Positions 1 through 16,123 of a stretch of DNA of 16,123 nt are shown one piece after another. Both the position numbers and the translations under genes were made by a program. The stretch lies in IMG/VR virus record IMGVR_UViG_3300045988_123035, positions 1 through 16,123 of that record; one strand, written 5' to 3'. The notes beneath the pieces were generated by a model. That model made no database searches. It was not told where the DNA came from and saw only the letters and a list, made by a program, of their open reading frames with translations. The first letter of the stretch is position 1. Each line of letters starts with the position of its first letter. The stretch comes from a virus.

Positions 1-49
1 GCGACCACCGAGATCTACACTCTTTCCCTACACGACGCTCTTCCGATCT
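1..49. other. Illumina TruSeq universal (P5/read-1 side) adapter remnant; synthetic, not biological
   Basis: GCGACCACCGAGATCTACACTCTTTCCCTACACGACGCTCTTCCGATCT is the 3' 49 nt of the TruSeq universal adapter. Its exact reverse complement is at 16075..16123. Confidence 0.97.
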
Positions 50-2017: not shown

Positions 2018-2797
2018 CTACCTCATCCAATCAATAGATAAGCCTAAGTTTCCGCGGTTTCCGTACGCCATCATATTAAAGTCATTTCCATGCTCGGAAA
2101 AATCATCAAAAATTGACATAAATAATTCTTCGCAATCTGCAATGATAGCGTTATTAACATTAACAATGTGTTCACGATACATTACAAGTTCGTTCATTTT
2201 ACTGCCGCGCCATCCTTTTTCTGTCCGATGGCTAGTGTCTACAACTGATGTATTACTCTTACCTGTGTTTTTTTCAGTAACTGCTCGGCTGTTCTCTTCT
2301 GTGCTTTGCCCTCTAGTCATGCCGGACGCATAGTCTGTGCCGGAAAAATTAACTTGTGGGTTATCGCTGTTAATGCGTTGGTCATTAGCGCTACTATTGT
2401 TAGTGTCGTTCATGGCTCTGTCTGCTTGTGATGTATTGCTTCCGTCGCTCGTGTCGGTGTCGTCAAATGTCATGTTTGTATTTTCCAAAATTTGTGATAC
2501 GCTTAAATTACTGTCATACATCGCTTTGTATCTTGGCATGTTTCGTGTCAGCGTGTCATTAAGCTTGAGCTTAAAAAGACCGATTGTCTCGAATCCGATT
2601 TCGCTCATATAAAAATGGATAATAAACATACGCTCGAACTCTACGCGGCTTGTCTCGTCCTCATTGTACCATGGGTACGAAAAATCGAAAAGGTGCGGTC
2701 GTCCTGTGGCTATTTTGTCGTACGTTGTAGCATTTACATTCTTCCAGTCCGTAAAGCTTTCGATATATTCCCTAATTCTGGTCGTATATGTTGCCAT
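2018..2797 (-). CDS. Lower collar protein (phi29 gp11-like), 259 aa
   Basis: The start is taken at the internal ATG 2797 (RBS GGGGGCGGAG), which overlaps the connector gene by 26 nt. It lies directly downstream of the connector, as in phi29. The HFYMSEIGFETIGLFKLKLN..MPRY pattern recalls podophage lower-collar proteins. Confidence 0.6.
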   Translation of the reverse strand: MATYTTRIREYIESFTDWKNVNATTYDKIATGRPHLFDFSYPWYNEDETSRVEFERMFIIHFYMSEIGFETIGLFKLKLNDTLTRNMPRYKAMYDSNLSVSQILENTNMTFDDTDTSDGSNTSQADRAMNDTNNSSANDQRINSDNPQVNFSGTDYASGMTRGQSTEENSRAVTEKNTGKSNTSVVDTSHRTEKGWRGSKMNELVMYREHIVNVNNAIIADCEELFMSIFDDFSEHGNDFNMMAYGNRGNLGLSIDWMR

Positions 2798-3662
2798 TTT
2801 CTCCGCCCCCTCTCTCAAGGTTTTCTTTTCTCTCAACGCCAAGACCGCTACCGATGTAGCTCACATCAACACTAAGCCCAAAAAGGCGGTTAATCTGTTC
2901 GCAAGCGCGCTTTCGCACTCCGAGAAATGATTGGCGGTTAATGAGCGTCAAATCTGCATCTTGTTCGACCTCGCTTGTAATTAAACGCTCTTTTTTTGTA
3001 CCGTCAATGTTATTTATACCAAACTGCACGCAAAAGTCTGCAATTTCTTGTCTCATTGCTGTTGTTAAGTCTCCGAAAACGTTCGGTGGGTTTAGGTTGA
3101 GTACTTTTATATTGTCAATGTTGCTTACGCCGTCTCTGACAGAAATAAAAGGTACAAAGTCATTATACTGTTTAAAAAGGTTTTTTGTGCTTAATCTCTG
3201 GTTATCACTGCCTGCAATAATAACAGGTGTTCTTTGCGCGTAAATGTTTAAATTTCTTGTCATTCTCATATTAGCCAAACTTTCCGCATACATCTGTACA
3301 TAATCTACGCTAGGATAACCAATGGCACTATCCCAAACAATAACGCTGTTTGCTTTATTAAGAGTTTTAAAATACTGCTGTGCATATGCAAAACGCGTAT
3401 TTGGTACGCCGTAAATATCAACAGTTCCGCCAAGGTTGGTTTTCATAATTGCAAATTTTTCGATAACATCATCTTCAAAAAAGACGGCTTGCCCCCACCA
3501 GAACAAATAATCTTCTAAAATTCGCGGCGGAATTTCATCCGGCAATCCTATCCATTCAAAACGGTTCACGATCATTTCATGAAGCATATTGAAATATCGG
3601 ATATAATAATTCCGGTATTGCGGCACACTGAAATATTCCGCGTCTTTTGATTGATTTTTCAT
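2772..3662 (-). CDS. Head-tail connector / upper collar (portal) protein, phi29 gp10 family (296 aa)
   Basis: It aligns by eye with phi29 gp10. [12 protein letters not shown] matches [39 protein letters not shown] matches [39 protein letters not shown] matches [28 protein letters not shown] matches REEACEKINELYGLNVKV. RBS AAGGAG. Confidence 0.9.
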   Translation of the reverse strand: [296 protein letters not shown]

Positions 3663-3679: not shown

Positions 3680-5365
3680 TTAATTGTTTGCAAGCCCATA
3701 ATTACCGATATCATTAGTATGCCATATTGTCACACCGCGATCAAATATTGATCGTAAAATAACAAGGTAATCAAGATCAATGTTACCGCTGATTGTGCAA
3801 TTACGGGTTTTAACAAAATCCCACGCCGATCTATTGTTGATTGACGGTTGTCCGATCTCGCCTATTTTATAGCCAAACATCGTAAAATAGTCGTCAATTT
3901 TACGTGCATACTCCGCGCGAATTTGCATAGGATAATAACTAATGTGGTCGTTGCCGATAATCTTACTTGCGTTACCGCTCGATGTTGTAACATTTCCGCT
4001 CGGCTGTAAAAAATGATTAACTACTGCTTTTATACCGTCTCCGATAACATCCGACCAATCAGTGCTACTAAGGGTACTTAATGGACTAGATTTAAAAGCA
4101 TCACTCGCGGCTTGCTTTCCTGTTGCTATGGCGTTTCCAGTTCCACTTGCCGCCGCACCCAAAAATCCAAAACCCGCACCAGATAAAGCTTTTCCAACTC
4201 CGTTAAAAACTCCGGCGGCTGTGTCAACACCTTGTGATACTACGTCTCCGCCACTCATTAAAGCACTCGCTCCCGCCGTACTTGTCATCTGTGCAACATA
4301 TGCTTTGTATGCATCTGTCATTATCGCACATTTTGGATAGTCCGAAAACGTAAGCATATCCGTATAATCTTGCGCGAATCCTTTGTACTGTATAGGATAA
4401 GACACAAGCAGAGGGTTAGGTGTCATTGCTACGGTATAAGTAAAACTACAAGCGTCACTTGCAAAAAATTCGTATCTATACTCGATTCCTACTCCGTTGT
4501 TATTATTGCCATATAAAAAATTATACGGATAACAAAATAACTTTTTATTTTTTGGCACATACCCATCAATATTGTCATATTTTTTAGGCAAATTTAACTG
4601 TTTGAATTGTGTTTCTTCTGCGATAAAGCTTGTTGGCATCATAAATGCGTTTAAAATTCCGTCAATAGTACCGTTTGCGTTAGCGGCAATTAAAAATTCA
4701 TTTACGCCGTTTCCATTATCGAAAACGTTAAAAGTGATTGCAGTATACACACCATCCCTAAATTCTCCACCGTTAAAATTTCCGCTCTCGTCAAATGCGC
4801 TCGGTATGACAACGCTCATAATGTTTCTGTCACTTAATTCCGGCGCGTCATAATTCTGATCTGTCTCCTGTTTAACAATATATTCGCCTGTTTCCAATCC
4901 CTCTGGGAAAGTGTATTTACCTATAACATCATCAGACTTTTTTACAATTTGTCGCTCGATATAGCACTTATTGAGCACCATATCAAATTGACAATTTGTC
5001 CAAACGTCCATGATAAAATGCACTCTGCACGAGTTGACAGACAGCGGCTCGACACTTGTTATAAATCCATACGCCCAGTTGTCCATATATCCTACGTTTT
5101 TAAAAGCAATATAGTTCGCACTGTCTGCGTACAACTCGTTCACAGGCGCGGCAAAATCCGCGTAACCTCTTTTAACTGGCGCGGCATTATCGGTGCTATA
5201 GATTGCTTTGCTATCAACATATGCAAAAAGTTCTTCTCGGCTGTTAAAAAGTCGCACATGGTTGTAGGACGAATCCCACGGTATACCTCGGCATATCCTC
5301 ACTTGTGCAACAGGCGCTATTCCATCTACGTTTTTTTGTGTTGGCATCGGTATCATGTTATCCAT
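3680..5365 (-). CDS. Tail knob / distal tube protein, phi29 gp9 family (561 aa)
   Basis: NYIAFKNVGYMDNWAYGFITSVEP..VHFIMDVWTNCQF matches phi29 gp9 YIMFQNADYGNKWFYAFVTELEF..VHFEIDVLQTWMF. The C-terminus FGYKIGEI..FVKTRNCTISGNIDLDYLVILRSIFDRGVTIWHTNDIGNY matches [48 protein letters not shown]. The start is set at ATG 5365 (RBS AGGAAA), because the upstream 15 codons of the ORF cover a hairpin and a parS palindrome. Confidence 0.88.
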   Translation of the reverse strand: MDNMIPMPTQKNVDGIAPVAQVRICRGIPWDSSYNHVRLFNSREELFAYVDSKAIYSTDNAAPVKRGYADFAAPVNELYADSANYIAFKNVGYMDNWAYGFITSVEPLSVNSCRVHFIMDVWTNCQFDMVLNKCYIERQIVKKSDDVIGKYTFPEGLETGEYIVKQETDQNYDAPELSDRNIMSVVIPSAFDESGNFNGGEFRDGVYTAITFNVFDNGNGVNEFLIAANANGTIDGILNAFMMPTSFIAEETQFKQLNLPKKYDNIDGYVPKNKKLFCYPYNFLYGNNNNGVGIEYRYEFFASDACSFTYTVAMTPNPLLVSYPIQYKGFAQDYTDMLTFSDYPKCAIMTDAYKAYVAQMTSTAGASALMSGGDVVSQGVDTAAGVFNGVGKALSGAGFGFLGAAASGTGNAIATGKQAASDAFKSSPLSTLSSTDWSDVIGDGIKAVVNHFLQPSGNVTTSSGNASKIIGNDHISYYPMQIRAEYARKIDDYFTMFGYKIGEIGQPSINNRSAWDFVKTRNCTISGNIDLDYLVILRSIFDRGVTIWHTNDIGNYGLANN

Positions 5366-5380
5366 GCTTTCCTCATTTCT

Positions 5381-5401
5381 AGGGGAGCATTGCGCTCCCC
5401 T
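5381..5401 (-). other. GC-rich RNA stem-loop between the capsid and tail-knob cistrons
   Basis: 8-bp stem AGGGGAGC/GCTCCCCT with a 5-nt loop and no U tract. It lies 7 nt from the parS palindrome and 15 nt upstream of the tail-knob start. Confidence 0.4.
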
Positions 5402-5408
5402 CAAAATC

Positions 5409-5428
5409 AATGTTTCACGTGAAACATT
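5409..5428. promoter_or_regulatory. parS: parS-like perfect palindrome, copy 1 (20 bp; 16-bp core 5411..5426)
   Basis: AATGTTTCACGTGAAACATT. The core TGTTTCACGTGAAACA is the symmetric form of the ParB/Spo0J site TGTTNCACGTGAAACA. It abuts the capsid gene stop codon (5428..5430). Confidence 0.7.
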
Positions 5429-6705
5429 TACTGATTGACTGTAACAGTACCTGTTCCGCTGATCGTGCTGTTATATCTTGATATCGCTTTTACGGTAAGC
5501 GTTGCCGCTTTCTCGTCATTGGCAATATGCAAGATATTCGACCCCGGAATAAAACTTGTATACTGGCTTGTCGCGCCCTCTACGTCAAAATCGAGCATCT
5601 GCGGCGTGTACTGATCTGTGCCTGTTACTAAGGCTGTAACCTCAACATCAGTTCCCACATTTCCGGCGGTATCTGTAACGCTCACGGTTGTAAGTCCGAC
5701 AGTATCCGTAGTAAAAACAATGCAAGGGAAAAACGGCGAATAAGAAAACATTTCCGACATTGTGTAAAAATAATTCCACGTAAGCGCCGCACCATTTCTT
5801 GAATCGGTCAGCGTCCGGAAATTCTCGCGCACATTAAAAAATCTCATATCAAACAGCGCAAGCTTGATATTGGGGTCGTCAAACTTGTCAATGATAATTT
5901 TGCGGACATTGATGTCAACTTTATCCATATTAAAGGCTGTTGCAAGCACTTCAACATCTAACTCCGCGTCAATTTCCGGCGTAGTGATATAAAAGATTGT
6001 CTGATCGTTTGCGCAACTGTCTGCTCCGGCAATATTGTACTCGGGGTGGGGAAATTTCATCTGTCCGATGTAAGCCTTTACAAGCTTTGTCAGCTTTTTA
6101 GCATTTTCTGCACTTGCTGTAGGGTCTGCAACATTAACCGCGTACAGCTGATCTGCCGCACTCGCGCTCTCAATCAGACGTTTCATGCACAAATATTCAT
6201 CCCAATTTGCCGCTGCAAAAAGACTCTGTACTTTTGCATTGATTAAATCGCGCACACCATATTCCGACCGGAACGCTGTACGCAAGTTGTCAAAAGTGAC
6301 TGTAACCGCGTACTGGATAGCGGGTGTGATCTTGTGATACGCCGCCATGACACTTGACTGATAGTAAGCATACAGTTCTGCAACTGTTGCGAACTGGTTA
6401 AACTGCTTACCTTTTGCCATGTTGATAAAAATTTCTTCTTCTGTACCACCGTAACGCATCGGGTCTCTCTTAAGCACTCCGAGAGGATTCTCAAAAAAGA
6501 CTGTCTCGATTCTCTGCTCCATGATCTGCTCTACCAACGCATTTGCAAACGCATTTCTAAGCGGTACAATATTAAGCAAACTTTCGTAAATACTAGAGAT
6601 GTTCTCCGATGTTGCTTCGGGAATCCGGTTCTGATATTCCAGACTCTGCATAGATCTTACTGCATTTAAAATAGCTACGTTCGTAGCCGGAACTTTGTTA
6701 CCCAT
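5428..6705 (-). CDS. Major capsid protein with C-terminal Ig-like (BIG2-type) domain (425 aa)
   Basis: Strong RBS GAGGAG. The gene lies directly downstream of a small acidic scaffold-like gene, as in phi29 genes 7-8. The size and the C-terminal beta-rich segment (TVSVTDTAGNVGTDVEVTALVTG..ATLTVKAIS..GTGTVTV) resemble phi29 gp8 with its Ig-like domain. Confidence 0.75.
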   Translation of the reverse strand: MGNKVPATNVAILNAVRSMQSLEYQNRIPEATSENISSIYESLLNIVPLRNAFANALVEQIMEQRIETVFFENPLGVLKRDPMRYGGTEEEIFINMAKGKQFNQFATVAELYAYYQSSVMAAYHKITPAIQYAVTVTFDNLRTAFRSEYGVRDLINAKVQSLFAAANWDEYLCMKRLIESASAADQLYAVNVADPTASAENAKKLTKLVKAYIGQMKFPHPEYNIAGADSCANDQTIFYITTPEIDAELDVEVLATAFNMDKVDINVRKIIIDKFDDPNIKLALFDMRFFNVRENFRTLTDSRNGAALTWNYFYTMSEMFSYSPFFPCIVFTTDTVGLTTVSVTDTAGNVGTDVEVTALVTGTDQYTPQMLDFDVEGATSQYTSFIPGSNILHIANDEKAATLTVKAISRYNSTISGTGTVTVNQ

Positions 6706-7014: not shown

Positions 7015-8124
7015 CTACCTACCTTTCCCTAAAAATGGTTTTAAATAGTATATAAACGGTGTCTTTCTTGCACTTGGAATAGGTGCTACACCGTATATAT
7101 TGATAGTACAATTTTGATAAATATTTGCATCACTTAAAATAAAGAAACGTATAACAACTCTCCGCAATGCTGTAACATTTACTTTGATATAGCAATAACC
7201 TCTTTCTTTTTTAACAAGTTCCGCACCATATGGTACATTAACTCCCCAATCATAATTTGATCTTACATTAAACCTAACAACAGTACCAACGTTTGCTCTC
7301 TGGCTATACGGTGTTACGTTAATTTCGGGGATGGGTGGCGCGGGTCTGTTTATCCCAATCTGGCATTGTGCAGTAACGCTCTGGCTATCAACCAACCAAA
7401 AGTTTACAACGCTTGTAACTTGTGCGCCGTTTGCGTTTCCGCTAACGATCAAAGCATTATCTTCTTTTGTCGCGGCTAAATACTGTCCAAGATTATAAGT
7501 CCATTCAGAGTTAGCATTAACTGTAATTCTAACGCTTCCCCCATCTATTATACTAGCACTAATAGGCTCTATTGTCAAGACTTTTATTTCCGGCGGCAAG
7601 ATTCCATGCATTTTATTATAAATCTGTTCCGAGTAATCAGCCCTAGTTTCTTGCGCGCCTATTCCTTGATCTTGCGGCTTTTCGTAGTTATGTAGTACAT
7701 AATCACTAGCGCTTCTAAAATCACTTGCATTTAATAAAACGTCTAGTGTAGAGCGGTAAGAGCCTGTTAATTCTTCTGTTGCAAAAGCAATTCCAAGTTC
7801 TAGTGCTCCTATGCTAGTTCCCATTTGTTCTTTTAGATTATATAGTCCTAATTTTCTGCCGGATGATGTCCATTGTGCAAATCCATAACCTTTTTGATCG
7901 TAGACAAAGCTATTTTTGCTATATTCCCCGCTATCAACCTTATTTGTATAATTAACACTAGGTGTCCAAGGTGGTGCAACATTACCTTGTATACAATACG
8001 GTATTATATGACTCTCTGCATACCAATTACCCATTAAAGCCGCGCGCCCGATTTCGTTGGGTATTAAACTAGCAAGCGCTAACCAAGTTTGCCTTATATA
8101 TCCATAATCAACTATAGCCGCCAT
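7015..8124 (-). CDS. Tail-associated peptidoglycan hydrolase (phage tail lysozyme-type N-domain) with two tandem beta-domains (369 aa)
   Basis: N-terminal motifs LMGNWYAES, GYGFAQWTSSGR and HNYEKP fit the phage tail lysozyme family (GNxxxES / GxGxxQWT). The C-terminal half is an internal tandem duplication. ATG 8124 overlaps the ATPase TGA (TGATG). Confidence 0.65.
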   Translation of the reverse strand: MAAIVDYGYIRQTWLALASLIPNEIGRAALMGNWYAESHIIPYCIQGNVAPPWTPSVNYTNKVDSGEYSKNSFVYDQKGYGFAQWTSSGRKLGLYNLKEQMGTSIGALELGIAFATEELTGSYRSTLDVLLNASDFRSASDYVLHNYEKPQDQGIGAQETRADYSEQIYNKMHGILPPEIKVLTIEPISASIIDGGSVRITVNANSEWTYNLGQYLAATKEDNALIVSGNANGAQVTSVVNFWLVDSQSVTAQCQIGINRPAPPIPEINVTPYSQRANVGTVVRFNVRSNYDWGVNVPYGAELVKKERGYCYIKVNVTALRRVVIRFFILSDANIYQNCTINIYGVAPIPSARKTPFIYYLKPFLGKGR

Positions 8125-9176
8125 CACATCAACCTCACACTAAGTATATCAAGCACAATATCCTTACATTTCAGATCTTTAAACCTCAATAAACCTAAGT
8201 CGTAAGACCTCTTAAGATAGTCATAGATAAAACTCTGACTACTCAACATTAAAGTTTCTGCGTTATGACTGCTCGCGTCAAACGTAAAGCGATATTTACA
8301 ACTCTGGTCAACAGTCCTGTCAATATACACAATACCTTTTTCTGGGTACTCTCTAACTGCATAACTATCTTTCCCGCAAACGAGCGTAAATATATAGCGG
8401 CTGTTTCCGCTTACGCTTTCGACAAAAGCTGTTGCATCACACATATAAATACCATCAGCACTACTAATCTGATAAGTGCTATCTTTAAAAATTATACCGA
8501 GTTTGCAAAGTTTTAGTGCATTTTGCGCGTCTTTATTAACAACAAACTGCGCAACCCATCCATGACCACGCAAAAATTTAGTGTTATCTCTTAATCTCTT
8601 ATGTATACCAAAAAAAATAAAATAGGGATTTAAAAGTGTCACATAATTGCCGAGCATATAAACGGGCACTTCCCGCACCTGTTTTCCTTTACCTCTGCAT
8701 ATCGTCCTTAATGTACTCTCAAATTTTGTCAATTCATTTTTTAAATATCCGTTATTCTCAAGGACAAATTCATCAAAAACGATAAGTTCTACGTCTTTAA
8801 ACATTGGGCTGTATTTTTTAAGTTTATCGGTGTTGTTAAAGTATACAGCATATCCAAGTAGTTTAACATTATCATCTTTATCATGTAGCATCATAGCACT
8901 AATCAAACCTTTTACAATACTTTTATTAGTTACGACTTTTCCATACTCTGGACAACTGTCCAAAATATCTTCATACATCTTTCCACTGCTCGAAATTTCG
9001 TCCTGTGTCCGATACAAAAAGGCAACCTGTTTATCATTCTGTACATTTTTCAAACTTTCAATTAAAAGTGCCGTTGTCTTTCCGGCGCTACGGTTTCCAA
9101 TAATCATTCTCAAAATTGGTTCATCATTATCTAAGTCTTTTATGTTTTTTATACTATCAAGATTATAAAAAGACAT
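8124..9176 (-). CDS. DNA encapsidation (packaging) ATPase, phi29 gp16-like (350 aa)
   Basis: Walker A GNRSAGKT and Walker B LIVFDEF, at a size typical of phi29-type small packaging ATPases. The start is set at ATG 9176 (RBS AAAGGGGGAAA), because the longer ORF (to 9233) would run through the tRNA gene. Confidence 0.85.
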   Translation of the reverse strand: MSFYNLDSIKNIKDLDNDEPILRMIIGNRSAGKTTALLIESLKNVQNDKQVAFLYRTQDEISSSGKMYEDILDSCPEYGKVVTNKSIVKGLISAMMLHDKDDNVKLLGYAVYFNNTDKLKKYSPMFKDVELIVFDEFVLENNGYLKNELTKFESTLRTICRGKGKQVREVPVYMLGNYVTLLNPYFIFFGIHKRLRDNTKFLRGHGWVAQFVVNKDAQNALKLCKLGIIFKDSTYQISSADGIYMCDATAFVESVSGNSRYIFTLVCGKDSYAVREYPEKGIVYIDRTVDQSCKYRFTFDASSHNAETLMLSSQSFIYDYLKRSYDLGLLRFKDLKCKDIVLDILSVRLM

Positions 9177-9194
9177 TACGTTTCCCCCTTTAAA

Positions 9195-9265
9195 CTGGAC
9201 TAGCGGGAATCGAACCCGCATTGACGGAGTCAAAATCCGTTGTCTTACCGTTAAACGATAGTCCC
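9195..9265 (-). tRNA. tRNA-Gln (anticodon UUG), no encoded CCA
   Basis: Hand-folded cloverleaf. The acceptor is GGGACUA/UAGUCC(A), with a G1.A72 mismatch. The D arm is GUUU-AACGGUA-AGAC. The anticodon arm is ACGGA-UUUUGAC-UCCGU, with U33 and A37. The variable loop is CAAU. The T arm is GCGGG-UUCGAUU-CCCGC. The discriminator is G. Confidence 0.85.
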
Positions 9266-9266
9266 T

Positions 9267-9292
9267 AGAAATGTTTCACGTGAAACATTTCT
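9267..9292. promoter_or_regulatory. parS: parS-like perfect palindrome, copy 2 (26 bp; 16-bp core 9272..9287)
   Basis: AGAAATGTTTCACGTGAAACATTTCT. It overlaps the holin stop codon by 1 nt and ends 1 nt before the tRNA 5' end. Confidence 0.7.
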
Positions 9293-9621
9293 TATTTCTT
9301 AGGCGCTTTCTCCAAGATCTCTCTTATCTTTTCCGGCACTAACTTTTTATTGATTCTGCTCACATTTTCGAAAATACTGCCGATTTCCATTAAAATAATA
9401 TATACACAAATACTCTCGAGCACCGGAACATTGAATCCCATATCAAGATAACTCTGTCCGTAGTCGATCAGAAAGCCAACTGCCACAATTACAATTTCGC
9501 CGAACTTGTTAAAAAGTCCGTCACGCATTACACTGCTGTTAAAATTACTGTTTTTAACAGCCATAACAATTCCGGTAATAAAATCAAGTACAATAAACAA
9601 CATTACGATAACAATACTCAT
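9292..9621 (-). CDS. Holin (phiLC3 / Phage_holin_4_1-type), 109 aa
   Basis: Three hydrophobic segments and family-typical motifs: LDFITGIVMAVKN....S, then LMEIGSIFEN, then a basic C-tail (PEKIREILEKAPKK). RBS GAGGAG. Confidence 0.85.
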   Translation of the reverse strand: MSIVIVMLFIVLDFITGIVMAVKNSNFNSSVMRDGLFNKFGEIVIVAVGFLIDYGQSYLDMGFNVPVLESICVYIILMEIGSIFENVSRINKKLVPEKIREILEKAPKK

Positions 9622-10431: not shown

Positions 10432-10449
10432 ATGTTTCACGTGAAACAT
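10432..10449. promoter_or_regulatory. parS: parS-like perfect palindrome, copy 3 (18 bp; core 10433..10448)
   Basis: ATGTTTCACGTGAAACAT lies in the 99-bp spacer between the acidic ORF and the SSB gene. It is flanked by direct repeats AATGTTGC (10420..10427 and 10454..10461). Confidence 0.7.
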
Positions 10450-11360: not shown

Positions 11361-11409
11361 ACAATAATCCTCACTTTCTTGTGCTTTTGTTTGTTATCCT
11401 TACATGATT

Positions 11410-11439
11410 ATAATATCATGTTTATTCTATTTTTGTCAA
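11410..11439 (-). promoter_or_regulatory. SigA-type promoter with extended -10 (cassette 2)
   Basis: Minus strand: TTGACA, then 18 nt ending in TGa, then TATTAT. Near-identical to the promoter at 12049..12077. Confidence 0.65.
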
Positions 11440-11447
11440 TATAATTT

Positions 11448-11681
11448 TTAAAAATTTTGGTTCTTTTGTTCCAATTTTTTCATCAATTCGATTTCTCTCT
11501 TTTCACTAATCGTCATATATTTTTGTCGTAAATCATTGATTGCGTCACAAACTGCTTTTATGTTTGCTTCCGGTACTCTGATAGCGGCGTAAATGTACAG
11601 CTTGCAAGTATTAAAGTCGGACGGTTCGAAGATATGTGCTTCAAACATACGAGATAACTCTAAGTACACTCTTTCTCTCAT
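11448..11681 (-). CDS. Hypothetical early protein (77 aa)
   Basis: ATG 11681 behind the GCACAAGAAAGTGAGGA leader. No recognisable motif. Confidence 0.55.
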   Translation of the reverse strand: MRERVYLELSRMFEAHIFEPSDFNTCKLYIYAAIRVPEANIKAVCDAINDLRQKYMTISEKREIELMKKLEQKNQNF

Positions 11682-11725
11682 TATTATTCCTCACTTTCTT
11701 GTGCTTTGTTATCCTTACACTATGT

Positions 11726-11758: not shown

Positions 11759-12001
11759 TTACAACTTATTTATATATCTTGCCGACTTGTAGTCCATGTG
11801 ACTATCTACTACTATATATGCTACTAATTCGCGAATCGGAAAATCTGTTCTTCTTAAATACCGTTCTACTCTATAGTAAGTTCTATTTCCTACAACATAA
11901 ATTTCTTCTAAAGTGTAATGATGTGTAGAATTGATAAAATGAGTGTTTCTATCTATTGCGGATTTAAGCAATTTTCTCACTGTTTCTTTTCTTATTGCCA
12001 T
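11759..12001 (-). CDS. Hypothetical basic early protein (80 aa)
   Basis: The start is set at ATG 12001 (RBS GAGGA 6 nt upstream). The GTG at 12013 in the ORF track lies inside the RBS. Confidence 0.55.
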   Translation of the reverse strand: MAIRKETVRKLLKSAIDRNTHFINSTHHYTLEEIYVVGNRTYYRVERYLRRTDFPIRELVAYIVVDSHMDYKSARYINKL

Positions 12002-12048
12002 AGTATTCCTCACTTTCTTGTGCTTGTTGTTTATTTCCTTGCATGATT

Positions 12049-12077
12049 ATAATATCATGTTTATTCTATTTTGTCAA
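12049..12077 (-). promoter_or_regulatory. SigA-type promoter with extended -10 (cassette 4)
   Basis: Minus strand: TTGACA, then 17 nt ending in TGa, then TATTAT. It starts 14 nt after the polymerase stop codon. Confidence 0.65.
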
Positions 12078-12090
12078 TAGTAATTTTAAA

Positions 12091-14238
12091 TTATTCGCAA
12101 TTATCTATAAAATTTCTGCCTATAATTTCTGAATATTCATCCGTAATCCCTAAAGTATAAGTTGTGTCTACAATCGCAATGTTTGACGCTGTTGTAAACG
12201 TTGACTTTTTACCCATATAATCTGTTATTGTTATCGAATGTATGTTAGATTCATTAAAATAAGAAACTGTGCGTCCAGAATCAATAAAAAGCTTTCCAAT
12301 TTTAAAATCACTTATGCCGTTTCCGCGCTCTAACTCTGCCGCTCCTTTTTGTTTTGATAGACCAGATACAGTAACATGTAACTTGTTATCTTTGCTATCT
12401 ATGTATGCGTACTTTTTTGCACCTAGCGTCTTAAATTTTTTATAATTACCGTCGTCATCCCATATCCCTAAATAAAAACGCGTTGCAGTACCATCTTCAT
12501 TTTGGCGATCTGCATAATTGCGATAACGTTGTTTTTTTGCTAATAAGTAATCATTCCGGTCTTTAAAGCTTTGTAAATGCTGTTTTCCTATGAATTTTAC
12601 GCTATCAGTGTCGGCGTAGACAAAATCCCACCCAACAGCATCAATCATTTTTTGCAATTCCCATCTTGCATTAGCTGTAATGTACACTCCCCATTGATAG
12701 AGTAAAAACGAATTTTTTGAAGCTGTATAACTAGCTATTGATTCTAACAAATCCGGTGTAACTTTTGTCCACTCTCCGTCTGTGTAAACTATTTCATCAT
12801 GGCATATGTCTGTAACCATAGTACCAAAAACAGAGTTTAAGCTGTTTTTGCTTTTCATGTACTCGTATTCTTTCCCCGCTACATCCTTAAGTTGAGTTTT
12901 TTTGTCGTAAAACTCTAACATAGTGCTTACTATTGGTGCTGGCAAATAATCTTTTTTCGCCATGTAACCGCGTATCCACTCTATATCCTCAAAATGATAT
13001 TGATTGCAGATAATAATAAAGTCTAGTTCCGTGCAAGCATACGTTACCCATTCAGCCGATAACACGCGCCCGTTGTCGTTTATATACTCTTTACTAAATG
13101 ACGTACAATGCGCAAAGTCTATATAAGGCACTGTAACATCATCATGTACTGTTATAGTCTTAAATGTTACATGCATAATGATAGCGTTTTGTTTTTTGTT
13201 ACAATCAGATAATAATTGTGTAAAGTTTTTTGGTGTATACTCTGTAAACGGTGTCATAGGGTACAAATCAGAGCATATACATGATGGATAACTTGACACT
13301 CTATCCATGCTGTATACATTTTCAATTATTGCGTCCGCATAATATCTACTGGCATGTGTGTTACCTCCGCGAAAAGCTTTCCGCAATAATGTATAAACTT
13401 CCGGTGTAGGCATAAGAGTTTCAAACAATTCTCTATAATTCTTGTCCTCTCTGCAAGCTTTGCGCATTTCACGACGCACGTATCCGGTCGATGTTAGAGG
13501 TATTGTTGCTAATGTATCATTGTAATCATCCATTTTTGACAGTATACATTCCTCAAGTCCTTTTACATCATTATAGTCATATGCTAACTCTGTTTTAGTT
13601 TGCGGTGTATCTGGCGTACGCACTTTTTTATAATCATATCTATCTTGTAGCTTATAATGTACACAAAATTTTGAATTTTCACAAAATTTTGCTAAACTCA
13701 TGTTTGATAAAAAATAACTACACCTAAATTCAAAATGCGGAAATGTTTCACGTGAAACATTCAATTTGTTTATTGTTTTTAAATAATCTGACTTTAAACA
13801 GGCATTAAATTTAATGACCTTGTGCGATTCACGCGCAAAAAGTGATTCTATATATAAAAAATCCTTTACAAACATAAATTCATAAGCTAAATTATGTACA
13901 TAAATGACTAATTGTTTTGACGCTGATAATTCTAGGTATTCTCCTAGTTTACTTAAAAACATACTGAATTCTTCCCACCGTCTACCAAAACAAACATTCC
14001 CTTTGTAACAAAACTGCCAATGATACATAAATGCATAAGGTTTTTCACTGTTTATTGTTGTAGATTCTATATCAAATGTTGCAGGGCTATCTATATAAGC
14101 AATAGCCCTTTTGCCTTTTTTTCTAACTGTAGTATAATTCCAATTTATTACGTTGTATGGATAATCGTATACTGTATAAACTGTTTCATTTTTTGTATAT
14201 TCTTTCCCGTTTTTTGTATAAAATGTTTGTATTACCAT
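12091..14238 (-). CDS. Family B DNA polymerase, protein-primed type (715 aa)
   Basis: Exonuclease motifs: Exo I FDIEST, Exo II VHNLAYEF, Exo III YDYNDVKGL. Polymerase motifs: motif A DRVSSYP (DxxSLYP), motif B KNSLNSVFG (KxxxNSxYG), motif C YADTDS (YxDTDS), and KxY GAKKYAY. It sits next to a small basic ORF in a genome with ITRs. Confidence 0.95.
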   Translation of the reverse strand: MVIQTFYTKNGKEYTKNETVYTVYDYPYNVINWNYTTVRKKGKRAIAYIDSPATFDIESTTINSEKPYAFMYHWQFCYKGNVCFGRRWEEFSMFLSKLGEYLELSASKQLVIYVHNLAYEFMFVKDFLYIESLFARESHKVIKFNACLKSDYLKTINKLNVSRETFPHFEFRCSYFLSNMSLAKFCENSKFCVHYKLQDRYDYKKVRTPDTPQTKTELAYDYNDVKGLEECILSKMDDYNDTLATIPLTSTGYVRREMRKACREDKNYRELFETLMPTPEVYTLLRKAFRGGNTHASRYYADAIIENVYSMDRVSSYPSCICSDLYPMTPFTEYTPKNFTQLLSDCNKKQNAIIMHVTFKTITVHDDVTVPYIDFAHCTSFSKEYINDNGRVLSAEWVTYACTELDFIIICNQYHFEDIEWIRGYMAKKDYLPAPIVSTMLEFYDKKTQLKDVAGKEYEYMKSKNSLNSVFGTMVTDICHDEIVYTDGEWTKVTPDLLESIASYTASKNSFLLYQWGVYITANARWELQKMIDAVGWDFVYADTDSVKFIGKQHLQSFKDRNDYLLAKKQRYRNYADRQNEDGTATRFYLGIWDDDGNYKKFKTLGAKKYAYIDSKDNKLHVTVSGLSKQKGAAELERGNGISDFKIGKLFIDSGRTVSYFNESNIHSITITDYMGKKSTFTTASNIAIVDTTYTLGITDEYSEIIGRNFIDNCE
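13742..13761. promoter_or_regulatory. parS: parS-like perfect palindrome, copy 4 (20 bp; core 13744..13759), inside the polymerase ORF
   Basis: AATGTTTCACGTGAAACATT. It is read in frame as N160-V-S-R-E-T-F166 of the polymerase. Confidence 0.7.
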
Positions 14239-14984: not shown

Positions 14985-15707
14985 TTATCCCTCCGTTATA
15001 ATAGCTTTAAATCCGGCACTTTCAAGCGCTACTAACAAATTATGTGCATTTTCGATATTGTGAAAAGCTCCTTTTTGATCGAGCACAGATACACGATAGA
15101 TCTTAGATTCATCAATCTTTTCGCTTGACACGTCCAATTCATCATTCTTAGCTTCCTCCTCTGCTCTCGGTTCGCATATACACCGTGTTCCTGTGATGCC
15201 GTAAACGATTGCTGCTGCCATTTCATGCGGATTGTAAAAAACAATATCTTTTTTCGAATTGACAAAACAACATTCGATAAGCATCGCGGGCGCTTTTGTC
15301 CGGCGTAAAAAGCCTAGCTTCTTGTTGGTTTTTATGCCCCTGTTCTTAAACCCCAACGAACAAATCGCATTAAGCACATTGCCAGCGTAAACACTTGCTT
15401 TCGAGTTCTCGTCATAAATATATACCTCTGTTCCATTAGCTTCTGAATTGGCGGCAGAATTAAAGTGGATTGAAATATCTAAATCAACCTTGTGTTCGTT
15501 GCATTTATTGATAATACGGGTTAAAACATTAGTTTGAGATATTCCGTCTTCCACCGTGCAATCATAGACTGTGTGACCCATTCTGCGCAACTCGTCAACC
15601 ACAAGTTCTTTTACACGCCTATTCTCGATAGATTCAGAGATAAGCCCTACAGCACCGCAAGCTACTTTTCCGTGCGGGTTATGACCCGCGTGTACATTGA
15701 TTACCAT
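14985..15707 (-). CDS. Endolysin: N-acetylmuramoyl-L-alanine amidase (Amidase_3, CD27L-like) with SPOR-like C-terminal domain (240 aa)
   Basis: INVHAGHN...GA.G, DISIHFNSA..NGTEVYIY, FKNRGIK and PAMLIECCFVNSKKD match the pattern of clostridial phage Amidase_3 endolysins. The C-terminus YRVSVLDQKGAFHNIENAHNLLVALESAGFKAII resembles a SPOR repeat. Confidence 0.88.
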   Translation of the reverse strand: MVINVHAGHNPHGKVACGAVGLISESIENRRVKELVVDELRRMGHTVYDCTVEDGISQTNVLTRIINKCNEHKVDLDISIHFNSAANSEANGTEVYIYDENSKASVYAGNVLNAICSLGFKNRGIKTNKKLGFLRRTKAPAMLIECCFVNSKKDIVFYNPHEMAAAIVYGITGTRCICEPRAEEEAKNDELDVSSEKIDESKIYRVSVLDQKGAFHNIENAHNLLVALESAGFKAIITEG

Positions 15708-15802: not shown

Positions 15803-16074
15803 AGTTATCCACATCGAACAAGTGTTCGTGCTAGACGGACTAATGGTGTCCGTCTACCGCGGACACTGTTTTTTCGTGTTGTGTGAACAACTTTGAAAAC
15901 TCGTTGAATTGTCTGAAAACTTAAAAATCAATATGCATTATGCACAAAGATTTAGTCGATCTTTGTGCATTTTTACTATTGACAAATTGGAATAGATCAA
16001 CTTTTAGGTAGCGAATTTAACATCTGATTTATCGAACGTATGTTTGTCTTTTTGGGGAAAACAGTGTCCGCGCT
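15803..16074. repeat. Right inverted terminal repeat (272 bp)
   Basis: Exact reverse complement of 50..321. It carries mirror copies of the hairpins/terminators (facing outward on the plus strand) and of the LexA-like boxes. Confidence 0.95.
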
Positions 16075-16123
16075 AGATCGGAAGAGCGTCGTGTAGGGAA
16101 AGAGTGTAGATCTCGGTGGTCGC
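16075..16123. other. Illumina TruSeq P5 adapter remnant (reverse complement); synthetic
   Basis: AGATCGGAAGAGCGTCGTGTAGGGAAAGAGTGTAGATCTCGGTGGTCGC, which is the A-tail base plus the adapter read-through sequence. Confidence 0.97.

What the first reader, a model, noticed from the sequence alone, without database searches (positions are those of the whole stretch)
13742..13761. A perfect parS palindrome embedded in frame inside the DNA polymerase gene
The 20-bp palindrome encodes N160-V-S-R-E-T-F166, between Exo II (VHNLAYEF) and the FEFRCSYFLSNMSLAKF segment. All 18 core bases are identical to the intergenic copies, so the DNA is under dual constraint (protein coding and binding site). A ParB nucleoprotein complex nucleated about 480 nt into the ORF could act as a transcriptional roadblock specifically on the replicase. 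That would link replication to host ParB abundance, for example at the onset of sporulation.
Basis: partly seen in the sequence, partly recalled or inferred. Interest (0 to 1): 0.65.

Follow-up and report, generated by a model that had tools for sequence, protein, structure and literature searches.

The report
Host parS site inside phage polymerase gene
A small phi29-like gut phage carries four perfect copies of the bacterial chromosome-segregation site parS. One is written into a dispensable surface loop of its DNA polymerase gene, most likely so that the phage DNA can ride the host's ParB machinery, as phi29 does, rather than to block transcription.

Summary
Window 13742-13761 is a perfect 20-bp palindrome whose 16-bp core equals the chromosomal parS consensus. 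It encodes N160-F166 of a 715-aa protein-primed DNA polymerase. Three more perfect copies lie just after stop codons.

The window is a complete 16-kb phi29-like podovirus, probably of a gut Clostridia host.

The dual-constraint idea holds, and the DNA is the dominant partner:
- The peptide sits in a variable hairpin loop that polymerases at or below 49% identity lack.
- Relatives at 60-96% identity keep the same codons while the loop flanks diverge.
- Relatives at 50-52% identity have the loop without parS and carry paired parS upstream instead.
- Other clades placed parS at four other polymerase positions, always in the VSRET frame.

The roadblock interpretation is not supported:
- phi29 itself carries parS inside genes 10, 15 and 17, and its parS sites serve Spo0J-dependent capture into the prespore.
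- RNA polymerase crosses ParB-DNA complexes in vitro.
- Loss of Spo0J does not alter expression of genes next to parS in B. subtilis.

Best reading: this is one of a set of host-ParB loading sites used for segregation or spore hitch-hiking. It is a new member of the phi29 parS kind. Why every clear intragenic copy lies in the polymerase gene is unexplained.

The parts
13742..13761 (.). Polymerase-internal parS. A perfect 20-bp palindrome AATGTTTCACGTGAAACATT with its 16-bp core at 13744-13759, encoding N160-F166 on the minus strand.
   Evidence: Searches give the sequence, palindrome and frame. In 33 relatives of 60-96% polymerase identity the site is perfect in 25 and has one mismatch in 8. 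Codon-level conservation is shown.
13735..13794 (-). Lineage-specific loop of the polymerase exonuclease domain, about residues 149-168 (KSDYLKTINKLNVSRETFPH). It carries the parS.
   Evidence: The loop is absent from all polymerases at or below 49% identity. It is present without parS in P0156 and P0157. In the AlphaFold model it forms helix 149-156 plus coil 157-167 between strands 141-148 and 168-173, with block pLDDT of 73-75 against 86-95 on either side.
12091..14238 (-). Protein-primed family-B DNA polymerase gene (715 aa).
   Evidence: Pfam DNA_pol_B_2, E = 6e-11. The model has mean pLDDT 90.6, and its best PDB matches are phi29 DNA polymerase with TM-score 0.73-0.77 normalised to the target.
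10432..10449 (.). Intergenic parS. An 18-bp perfect palindrome that starts right after the stop of the 93-aa ORF and lies upstream of the 150-aa ORF.
   Evidence: Perfect in every relative of 72% identity or more that reaches this position.
9267..9292 (.). Intergenic parS. A 26-bp perfect palindrome between the holin stop and the tRNA-Gln / packaging-ATPase genes.
   Evidence: Perfect in all but one relative of 72% identity or more. The same position after the holin gene is occupied in L074.
5409..5428 (.). Intergenic parS. A 20-bp perfect palindrome between the major capsid protein stop and the tail-knob gene start.
   Evidence: Among the close relatives it is perfect only in L011; it is degenerate (1-2 mismatches) in eight others and absent from the rest. 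It is therefore a young or poorly maintained copy.

Best explanation
What it is. The palindrome is a real chromosomal-type parS, the loading site for the host's ParB/Spo0J CTP-dependent clamp. It is one of four on a complete phi29-like phage genome that has no recognisable ParA or ParB gene of its own.

How it most likely works (inferred). Host ParB nucleates at these sites and spreads over the 16-kb linear genome. The terminal-protein-capped ends would stop the clamps from sliding off. ParB then couples the phage DNA to the host ParA/SMC and origin-anchoring machinery. The infecting genome would thus be delivered into the forespore or inherited by daughter cells during a non-lytic carrier phase. 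This is the strategy shown experimentally for phi29 with Spo0J.

Why this copy is inside a gene. The polymerase copy is the early-region member of the set. The early region has almost no non-coding DNA, so the site was accommodated in a variable surface loop of the exonuclease domain. The peptide (N/D)-V-S-R-E-T-F is a by-product of the DNA sequence, not a functional polymerase motif.

Shown versus inferred.
- Shown here: identity to parS, non-random copy number, DNA-level conservation, the loop location, and repeated independent placement in relatives.
- Inferred: ParB binding, host identity, and the segregation or spore-entrapment outcome.
For: 1. The match to the consensus TGTTNCACGTGAAACA is 16 of 16 bases in four copies, against 0.12 expected. 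These are the only palindromes of 16 nt or more in the window.
2. There are 125 perfect copies in 888 kb of 69 related phage contigs, where about 2e-4 are expected. Fifty-one of the 69 contigs carry at least one.
3. The phage is phi29-like: Phi29_MCP, connector, gp9 tail knob, gp16 ATPase and DNA_pol_B_2 are all present. None of the 20 ORFs scanned against Pfam hits ParA or ParB, and 10 ORFs without annotation gave no PHROGs hit.
4. DNA-level selection. All 8 relatives in the 72-74% clade, and L074 at 60%, keep AAT GTT TCA CGT GAA ACA exactly, while the loop flanks diverge. Codon identity at conserved residues is about 0.53, so seven identical codons have a probability of about 0.012. The 16-mer falls in the lowest 1.1% of diversity windows in the gene.
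5. The peptide is not a polymerase motif. The loop is missing at or below 49% identity, and it reads NGNIN or LSSKD in P0156 and P0157. Those two genomes instead carry paired parS between the amidase gene and the next ORF.
6. Independent placements exist in the polymerase gene of other clades, always in the VSRET frame: residues 15-18, about 205, about 612 (the cultured Amedibacillus phage AD70P3) and 640. The sisters without a site read TTAIET at the first of these positions.
7. The loop is a lower-confidence surface hairpin in a model that is otherwise confident.
8. Precedent. phi29 has TGTTTCACGTGGAACA in genes 10, 15 and 17 and after gene 16. Published work assigns phi29's parS sites to Spo0J-dependent segregation into the prespore (PMC2731898).
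9. phi6423 is listed in the same cluster as Clostridium phage HM2, the closest isolate to this window. It is carried as a linear extrachromosomal element in the spore-former C. beijerinckii DSM 6423 (PMC11476376; PMC5894183).
10. Controls. A related Salmonella phage has no parS, and Enterobacteriaceae lack ParABS (PMC7022226).
11. ParB accumulation needs closed or capped DNA ends (PMC7053999). This fits terminal-protein-capped genomes.
Against: - No binding or phenotype data exist for this phage, and the host is unknown. The only lead is that the nearest cellular homologues of the endolysin, at about 54% identity, are in Lachnospiraceae. Sporulation capacity is therefore unverified.
- phi29's companion feature, Spo0A boxes at promoters, is not enriched here: 3 found against 2.2 expected.
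- The polymerase copy is less strictly conserved than the intergenic copies. It carries a mismatch in 8 of 33 relatives, against 1 of 64 intergenic copies (Fisher p = 6e-4). It may therefore be the least important member of the set.
- The segregation model does not by itself predict that all clear intragenic copies, at five independent positions, should be in the polymerase gene.
- Thirteen of the 69 related contigs have no site within two mismatches, so parS is not essential to the lineage.
- The related Acinetobacter phage Phanie also has none.
Confidence: 0.62

Rival explanations
1. ParB bound about 480 nt into the ORF, with spread ParB around it, acts as a transcriptional roadblock or silencer specifically on the replicase. 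Phage replication would then be tied to host ParB status, for example at the onset of sporulation.
For: - Every clear intragenic parS in this phage group lies in the polymerase gene, at five independent positions.
- Lineages without a polymerase-internal copy often place parS just upstream of the terminal-protein-like and polymerase genes (L076, L077, L033).
- Some chromosomal ParBs repress genes next to intergenic parS, for example in P. aeruginosa, and repression grows with ParB overproduction (PMC7022226).
Against: - RNA polymerase traverses B. subtilis ParB-DNA condensates with unchanged processivity. Velocity drops slightly only at 200 nM ParB (PMC10681803).
- Loss of Spo0J does not change expression of genes adjacent to parS in B. 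subtilis (PMC7022226).
- The site is about 2.0 kb downstream of one promoter-like element and about 1.7 kb upstream of the next, so it cannot occlude initiation directly.
- The most strictly conserved copies lie among the late genes.
- phi29's intragenic sites are in structural, lysis and early genes, not in its polymerase.
- The polymerase makes up about 60% of the coding DNA in the left 3.6 kb. A simple need for a site near the early end would put most intragenic copies there by chance: four of four has a probability of about 0.13, and five of five about 0.08.
Confidence: 0.1
2. Decoy or titration. The replicating phage genome, with four sites per copy and many copies per cell, soaks up host ParB. 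This would disturb host chromosome segregation, SMC loading, or the Soj/Sda sporulation checkpoint to the phage's benefit.
For: - There are several perfect, high-affinity-type sites per 16 kb, and they are conserved across clades.
- Loss of Spo0J lowers expression of sporulation genes through Soj and Sda in B. subtilis (PMC7022226).
Against: - There is no direct evidence.
- One or two sites per genome, as in several clades, would already be multiplied by replication, so titration does not explain the conserved positions.
- The published phi29 data point to segregation of the phage DNA itself (PMC2731898).
Confidence: 0.1
3. The palindrome is the operator of a phage-encoded DNA-binding protein, for example one of the unannotated small early ORFs. 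Its match to parS would then be coincidental or mimicry.
For: About ten small ORFs have no Pfam or PHROGs match, so a novel DNA-binding protein cannot be excluded.
Against: - The same exact 16-mer, equal to the near-universal chromosomal consensus, is kept in phages whose polymerases are only 40-46% identical and whose small ORFs differ.
- phi29 uses a variant with one mismatch, and published work describes its parS sites as Spo0J-binding sites (PMC2731898).
- No ParB-like or helix-turn-helix domain was detected.
Confidence: 0.05
4. RNA-level function. The palindromes form transcript hairpins that act as terminators, attenuators or mRNA stabilisers at gene ends.
For: - Three copies sit 1-5 nt after stop codons.
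- The 9272 copy folds at -12.3 kcal/mol with a z-score of -5.
- The same copy was picked up by the terminator-like scan, though on the non-coding strand.
Against: - The other three hairpins are weak, at -6 to -9 kcal/mol with z-scores between -1 and -1.9, and no U-tract follows on the coding strand.
- A structural element would covary. Here the sequence is invariant, and the variants that do occur are one-sided and uncompensated.
- A terminator inside the polymerase ORF would be harmful.
Confidence: 0.03
5. Incidental. The palindrome is a by-product of selection on the peptide NVSRETF.
For: None beyond the fact that the site is in frame.
Against: - The peptide lies in a loop that more distant polymerases lack.
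- The codons are invariant where synonymous sites are otherwise half-randomised.
- The same 16-mer recurs three more times in non-coding gaps and at four other polymerase positions in other clades.
Confidence: 0.01

Closest known systems
The parS (Spo0J-binding) sites of Bacillus phage phi29, used for entrapment of the phage genome in the spore (Meijer et al. 2005, as summarised in PMC2731898)
   Same: - Both are phi29-like protein-primed podoviruses with no ParB gene of their own.
- Both carry several copies of the host chromosomal parS scattered along the genome.
- In both, some copies lie inside coding genes and one lies directly after a gene stop.
   Different: - This phage is only distantly related. 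Its polymerase is about 17% identical to phi29's in the structural alignment, and its best isolate match is Clostridium phage HM2 at 45%.
- All its genes are on one strand.
- Its sites are perfect palindromes, whereas phi29's strong copies carry one mismatch (G at position 12).
- One copy lies in the polymerase gene, which is not the case in phi29.
- No Spo0A-box enrichment accompanies the sites.
- The host is probably a gut Clostridia member rather than Bacillus (inference).
Chromosomal parS sites of Bacillota (B. subtilis Spo0J, consensus TGTTNCACGTGAAACA)
   Same: - The 16-bp sequence is identical to the consensus.
- From established knowledge rather than a test here, most B. subtilis chromosomal sites also lie inside genes.
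- Loss of Spo0J does not change expression of the genes next to parS (PMC7022226).
   Different: - Here the sites are on a 16-kb linear viral genome rather than around oriC.
- The density is about one site per 4 kb.
Self-encoded ParABS partition cassettes of plasmid-prophages such as P1 and N15
   Same: Both would use a ParB-centromere complex to keep an extrachromosomal phage genome with the host lineage.
   Different: - Those elements encode their own ParA and ParB and have element-specific centromeres.
- This phage encodes neither and copies the host's chromosomal centromere instead.

Membership tests
Chromosomal-type parS (ParB/Spo0J loading site) | A 16-bp inverted repeat matching TGTTNCACGTGAAACA. 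| tested here: met
   All 16 bases match at 13744-13759, and three further perfect copies exist. The consensus is quoted in PMC7022226.
Chromosomal-type parS (ParB/Spo0J loading site) | Occurrence beyond chance, and conservation as DNA independent of coding. | tested here: met
   Four copies against 0.12 expected. Codons are identical across relatives of 60-96% identity, and the 16-mer is in the lowest 1.1% of diversity windows in the gene.
Chromosomal-type parS (ParB/Spo0J loading site) | Specific binding and CTP-dependent loading of the cognate ParB. | not testable with these tools
   This needs EMSA or ChIP with the host's ParB. The host itself is unidentified.
phi29-type phage parS / spore-entrapment strategy | A phi29-like protein-primed podovirus that lacks its own ParB and carries several host-type parS, some of them intragenic. 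| tested here: met
   The Pfam architecture is phi29-like and contains no ParA or ParB domain. The site census is. phi29 was scanned in the same way for comparison.
phi29-type phage parS / spore-entrapment strategy | Spo0A boxes (TGTCGAA) at phage promoters that suppress the lytic cycle. | tested here: not met
   Three matches against 2.17 expected, and none at the promoter-like sites. This feature is described for phi29 in PMC2731898.
phi29-type phage parS / spore-entrapment strategy | A spore-forming host and Spo0J-dependent capture of the genome in the forespore. | not testable with these tools
   The host is only inferred to be Lachnospiraceae-like, from endolysin homologues at about 54% identity. 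phi6423, listed in the same cluster as the window's closest isolate HM2, resides as a linear element in the spore-former C. beijerinckii.
ParB-mediated transcriptional silencing or roadblock (P1 ParB, KorB, P. aeruginosa parS3/4 type) | A site positioned at or next to the promoter of the regulated gene. | tested here: not met
   The site is inside the ORF. It lies about 2.0 kb downstream of the promoter-like element at 15780-15752 and about 1.7 kb upstream of the next one.
ParB-mediated transcriptional silencing or roadblock (P1 ParB, KorB, P. aeruginosa parS3/4 type) | A ParB-dependent change in transcription of the gene. | not testable with these tools
The literature on Bacillus ParB argues against an elongation block.
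Self-encoded ParABS partition cassette (P1/N15-like plasmid-prophage) | parA and parB genes encoded by the element next to its centromere. | tested here: not met
   None of the 20 ORFs scanned against Pfam hits ParA or ParB, and 10 ORFs without annotation gave no PHROGs hit.

The most novel reading that the evidence does not exclude
Repeated independent embedding of a ParB loading site in the replicase gene may reflect selection for physical coupling between host ParB and expression of the phage polymerase or terminal protein. The evidence is five different positions in five lineages, all in the VSRET frame, and an upstream intergenic pair in lineages without a polymerase copy. ParB occupancy, or a collision between ParB clamps and RNA polymerase, might throttle the replicase and hold the genome dormant in a forespore or carrier cell. 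That would be a form of lysis deferral that needs no repressor gene.
Probability: 0.12. Interest if true: 0.8.

Novelty: new member of a known kind. Interest (0 to 1): 0.5.

Why it matters
- It extends phi29's trick of borrowing the host centromere from Bacillus phages to a large, uncultured group of small podoviruses from human-gut samples that probably infect Clostridia. If these phages ride into spores or persist as partitioned linear episomes, that would help explain how strictly "lytic" tiny phages persist and spread with spore-forming gut bacteria.
- It is a clean natural example of a DNA-binding site dictating a protein sequence. The same pentapeptide, VSRET, appears at five unrelated places in a polymerase because the DNA is what is selected.
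- The polymerase-only pattern of intragenic copies gives a concrete, testable question about ParB and phage replication.

Tried and rejected
- Near-identity searches of the whole window against phage and plasmid records found only adapter matches or nothing. A protein search of plasmid records with the polymerase also found nothing.
- The genome-contig scan for a host returned two uninformative MAG fragments.
- The Meijer 2005 EMBO J paper is not held. Its content is cited only through PMC2731898.
- Spo0A boxes are not enriched.
- The RNA hairpin or terminator idea is weak on energies, and the sequence is invariant rather than covarying.
- PHROGs and Pfam gave nothing for ten small ORFs, so no phage-encoded binder could be nominated.
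- Rfam found no packaging RNA, only a tRNA.
- I considered that the L069 insertion (EDVLRETFP) might be a transplanted cassette from the window clade. I rejected this as unnecessary, because the flank preference AAA-parS-TTT across sites explains the N/D before and the F after VSRET.
- I considered polymerase-specific targeting to be shown by the five independent events, but did not accept it. The polymerase is about 60% of the coding DNA in the early 3.6 kb, so a positional requirement alone gives a similar pattern.
Full report
**What the window is.** The 16,123-base window is a whole linear phage contig. Its ends are 325-nt perfect inverted repeats, and all sizeable ORFs lie on the minus strand. 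Pfam identifies a phi29-type gene set:
- an Amidase_3 endolysin (14985-15707);
- a family-B "organellar and viral" DNA polymerase (12091-14238);
- a holin (9292-9621);
- a gp16-type packaging ATPase (8124-9233);
- a tail lysozyme (7015-8127);
- the Phi29 major capsid protein (5428-6705);
- the gp9 tail knob (3680-5410);
- the connector (2772-3662).

The AlphaFold model of the polymerase is confident (mean pLDDT 90.6). Its best solved-structure matches are phi29 DNA polymerase (TM-score 0.73-0.77 normalised to the target). The closest named phage is Clostridium phage HM2, at 45% polymerase identity. Sixty-nine IMG/VR contigs carry polymerases 38-96% identical, mostly from one large metagenome-derived set.

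The nearest cellular homologues of the endolysin, at about 54% identity, are in Lachnospiraceae genomes. A gut Clostridia host is therefore likely but unproven. A scan of isolate and MAG genomes did not reveal a host.

**Checking the observation.** Positions 13742-13761 read AATGTTTCACGTGAAACATT. This is a perfect 20-bp palindrome that cannot be extended. On the coding (minus) strand it is read as AAT GTT TCA CGT GAA ACA TTT, which is N160-F166. It lies between VHNLAYEF (residue 114) and FEFRCSYFLSNMSLAKF (residue 169), and the core starts 479 nt into the ORF.

The 16-nt core TGTTTCACGTGAAACA occurs four times without mismatch, at 5411, 9272, 10433 and 13744. Only 0.12 matches are expected even when three mismatches are allowed. 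All four copies share ATGTTTCACGTGAAACAT, and they are the only perfect palindromes of 16 nt or more in the window. The three non-polymerase copies fill tiny gaps 1-5 nt after stop codons.

- In an alignment of the polymerases from all loci, NVSRETF lies in a segment of about 18-21 residues (KSDYLKTINKLNVSRETFPH). Every polymerase at or below 49% identity lacks this segment. In those polymerases the strand before it joins the invariant (F/W)EFRCSYFLSNMSL block through a 2-4 residue turn.
- In the model the segment is a short helix (149-156) plus a coil (157-167) between two β-strands. Its confidence is locally lower, with block pLDDT of 73-75 against 86-95 on either side. This describes a surface hairpin loop. 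Motif order (Exo II before it, the SLAKF (S/T)Lx2h motif after it) places the loop in the exonuclease domain.
- Within the lineages that have the loop, the residues flanking the site diverge freely. Compare LKSDYLKTINKL, LGNDYGKSINKVG and TINKYINAVNSY.
- The six codons AAT GTT TCA CGT GAA ACA are nevertheless identical in all eight members of the 72-74% clade and in a 60% relative, L074.
- Between the window and the 72-74% clade, only about 53% of codons for identical residues are themselves identical. Seven in a row have a probability of about 0.012. The 16-mer falls in the lowest 1.1% of 16-nt diversity windows in the gene.
- Two bridging polymerases, P0156 (52%) and P0157 (50%), have the loop but read NGNIN and LSSKD there. 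Their genomes instead carry a pair of parS in the gap between the amidase gene and the next ORF. The pair is perfect in L077 at 1181 and 1208, and each copy has two mismatches in L076.

The loop is therefore a tolerant place into which the site was written, and the peptide is its by-product.

**The same thing happened elsewhere in the polymerase.** Other clades carry parS inside the polymerase gene at other positions, always in the one reading frame that gives V-S-R-E-T. Of the other two frames, one contains TGA and the other gives F-H-V-K.
- Residues 15-18 in the 46% clade (EDVSRETIY). The sisters without a site read TTAIETVY there.
- About residue 205 in L069, inside a private 12-residue insertion, with one mismatch.
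- Residue 640 in L043.
- Directly after the KxY motif in the cultured Amedibacillus phage AD70P3 (KKYAF-VSRET-NELG, one mismatch).

These are documented. Flanking bases across 130 perfect sites favour AAA-parS-TTT. This preference explains the N or D before the peptide and the F after it. In total, 125 perfect sites occur in 888 kb of the 69 related contigs, 51 of which have at least one. Thirteen contigs have none within two mismatches. Most sites (92 of 154 with at most one mismatch) are intergenic. The few "other ORF" cases are start-codon or spurious-ORF artefacts, or are ambiguous.

**What the site is.** The 16-mer is the near-universal chromosomal parS, the ParB/Spo0J loading site (consensus quoted in PMC7022226). 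None of the 20 phage ORFs scanned against Pfam shows a ParA or ParB domain, and 10 ORFs without annotation gave no PHROGs hit. Any partner must therefore be the host's ParB.

The direct precedent is phi29. Its genome holds TGTTTCACGTGGAACA in gene 10, in gene 15, immediately after gene 16, and in gene 17. The literature describes five parS sites in phi29 through which Spo0J helps segregate the infecting genome into the prespore (PMC2731898).

Three further points fit this picture:
- phi6423 is listed in the same cluster as Clostridium phage HM2, the window's closest isolate. It is maintained as a linear extrachromosomal element in the spore-former C. beijerinckii DSM 6423 (PMC11476376; PMC5894183).
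- A related Salmonella phage has no site, and Enterobacteriaceae lack ParABS.
- ParB-CTP clamps accumulate only on DNA whose ends are closed or capped (PMC7053999). Genomes capped by terminal protein would satisfy this condition; that step is inference.

**Mechanism I favour.** Host ParB loads at the four sites and coats the 16-kb genome. It links the genome to the ParA/SMC and origin-anchoring apparatus, so the phage DNA is carried into forespores or daughter cells during a non-lytic phase. The polymerase copy is simply the early-region member of the set. That region has almost no non-coding DNA, and sister lineages solve the same need with a site in the small gap upstream.

Points against this view, or left open:
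- nothing here shows binding or phenotype;
- the host and its sporulation capacity are inferred;
- Spo0A boxes, phi29's companion device, are not enriched;
- the polymerase copy is less strictly kept than the two main intergenic copies, carrying a mismatch in 8 of 33 relatives against 1 of 64 (Fisher p = 6e-4).

**The roadblock interpretation.** I find no support for a replicase-specific transcriptional roadblock.
- Single-molecule work shows RNA polymerase transcribing steadily through B. subtilis ParB-DNA condensates (PMC10681803).
- Loss of Spo0J leaves genes adjacent to parS unchanged in B. subtilis (PMC7022226).
- The site is 1.7-2.0 kb from the nearest promoter-like elements.
- The best-conserved copies lie among the late genes.

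One piece of evidence does lean its way. All clear intragenic copies, at five independent positions, are in the polymerase gene. If placement were random over all coding DNA this would be unlikely, roughly 0.16 to the fifth power. If the requirement is only "a site in the left 3.6 kb", the polymerase supplies about 60% of that DNA and the pattern is unremarkable. I therefore keep this rival at about 0.1 and flag the pattern as unexplained.

**Other rivals** are scored low for the reasons given in their entries. They are ParB titration, a phage-encoded binder, RNA hairpins and an incidental palindrome.

**Novelty and score.** The kind, a phi29-family phage borrowing the host centromere, has been known since 2005. 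This is a new and distant member, from an uncultured gut-associated clade. I found no paper in the held library that describes parS in such phages, but the absence of a hit is weak evidence. The added value is threefold: the clear demonstration that the DNA dictates the peptide, the recurrent writing of VSRET into a polymerase, and a testable question about ParB and the replicase. I score interest at 0.5.

Noticed in passing
window 1-49 and 16075-16123: The outermost 49 bases of both ends are Illumina TruSeq universal-adapter sequence (…GATCTACACTCTTTCCCTACACGACGCTCTTCCGATCT). They match unrelated phage records at 100% identity. The true genome ends are therefore at about 50 and 16074, and the real inverted terminal repeat is about 276 nt, not 325.
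   Followed up: partly
window 9195-9265 (-): A tRNA-Gln (anticodon UUG) sits 6 nt downstream of the parS at 9272 (Rfam 57 bits; ARAGORN). It overlaps the mechanically called TTG start at 9233 of the packaging-ATPase ORF, so the real start of that gene must lie further downstream.
   Followed up: partly
window 11362-11456, 11682-11706, 12001-12095: Three copies of a repeat of 25-92 nt lie at a spacing of about 320 bp, just downstream of the polymerase gene. Two of them carry a near-consensus promoter-like site (TTGACA, 17-18 nt, TATTAT), and each precedes a small ORF of 67-84 aa with no database match. They look like tandemly duplicated small early-gene cassettes.
   Followed up: no
whole window: All genes are co-directional, and the endolysin is the first gene at the polymerase-proximal end. 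phi29, by contrast, has divergent early and late operons. Rfam found no packaging RNA.
   Followed up: no
L077 1181/1208 and 9195/9222; L076 768/795; L059 4035/4055; L060 4258/4278: Some relatives carry parS as closely spaced pairs, 20-27 bp start to start, in intergenic gaps rather than as single sites.
   Followed up: no
L078 (Amedibacillus phage AD70P3, OP172639.1) 8511-8526: A cultured phage classified in Guelinviridae has a one-mismatch parS (TGTTTCACGTGAAACT) inside its DNA polymerase gene. It encodes VSRET directly after the KxY motif. This phage is a tractable system for experiments.
   Followed up: partly
window 14985-15707 (-) and its homologues P0047-P0120: Endolysin homologues at 52-57% identity combine Amidase_3 with a SPOR domain, and the nearest cellular ones are in Lachnospiraceae. 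The window protein itself shows only Amidase_3 at E<=0.01.
   Followed up: no
window 47-66/252-271 and 142-196 (mirrored at 15853-16077 and 15928-15982): The terminal repeats contain internal hairpin-forming inverted repeats, including terminator-like stems of 12-13 pairs. Their function is unknown; they might be telomere or origin structure.
   Followed up: no
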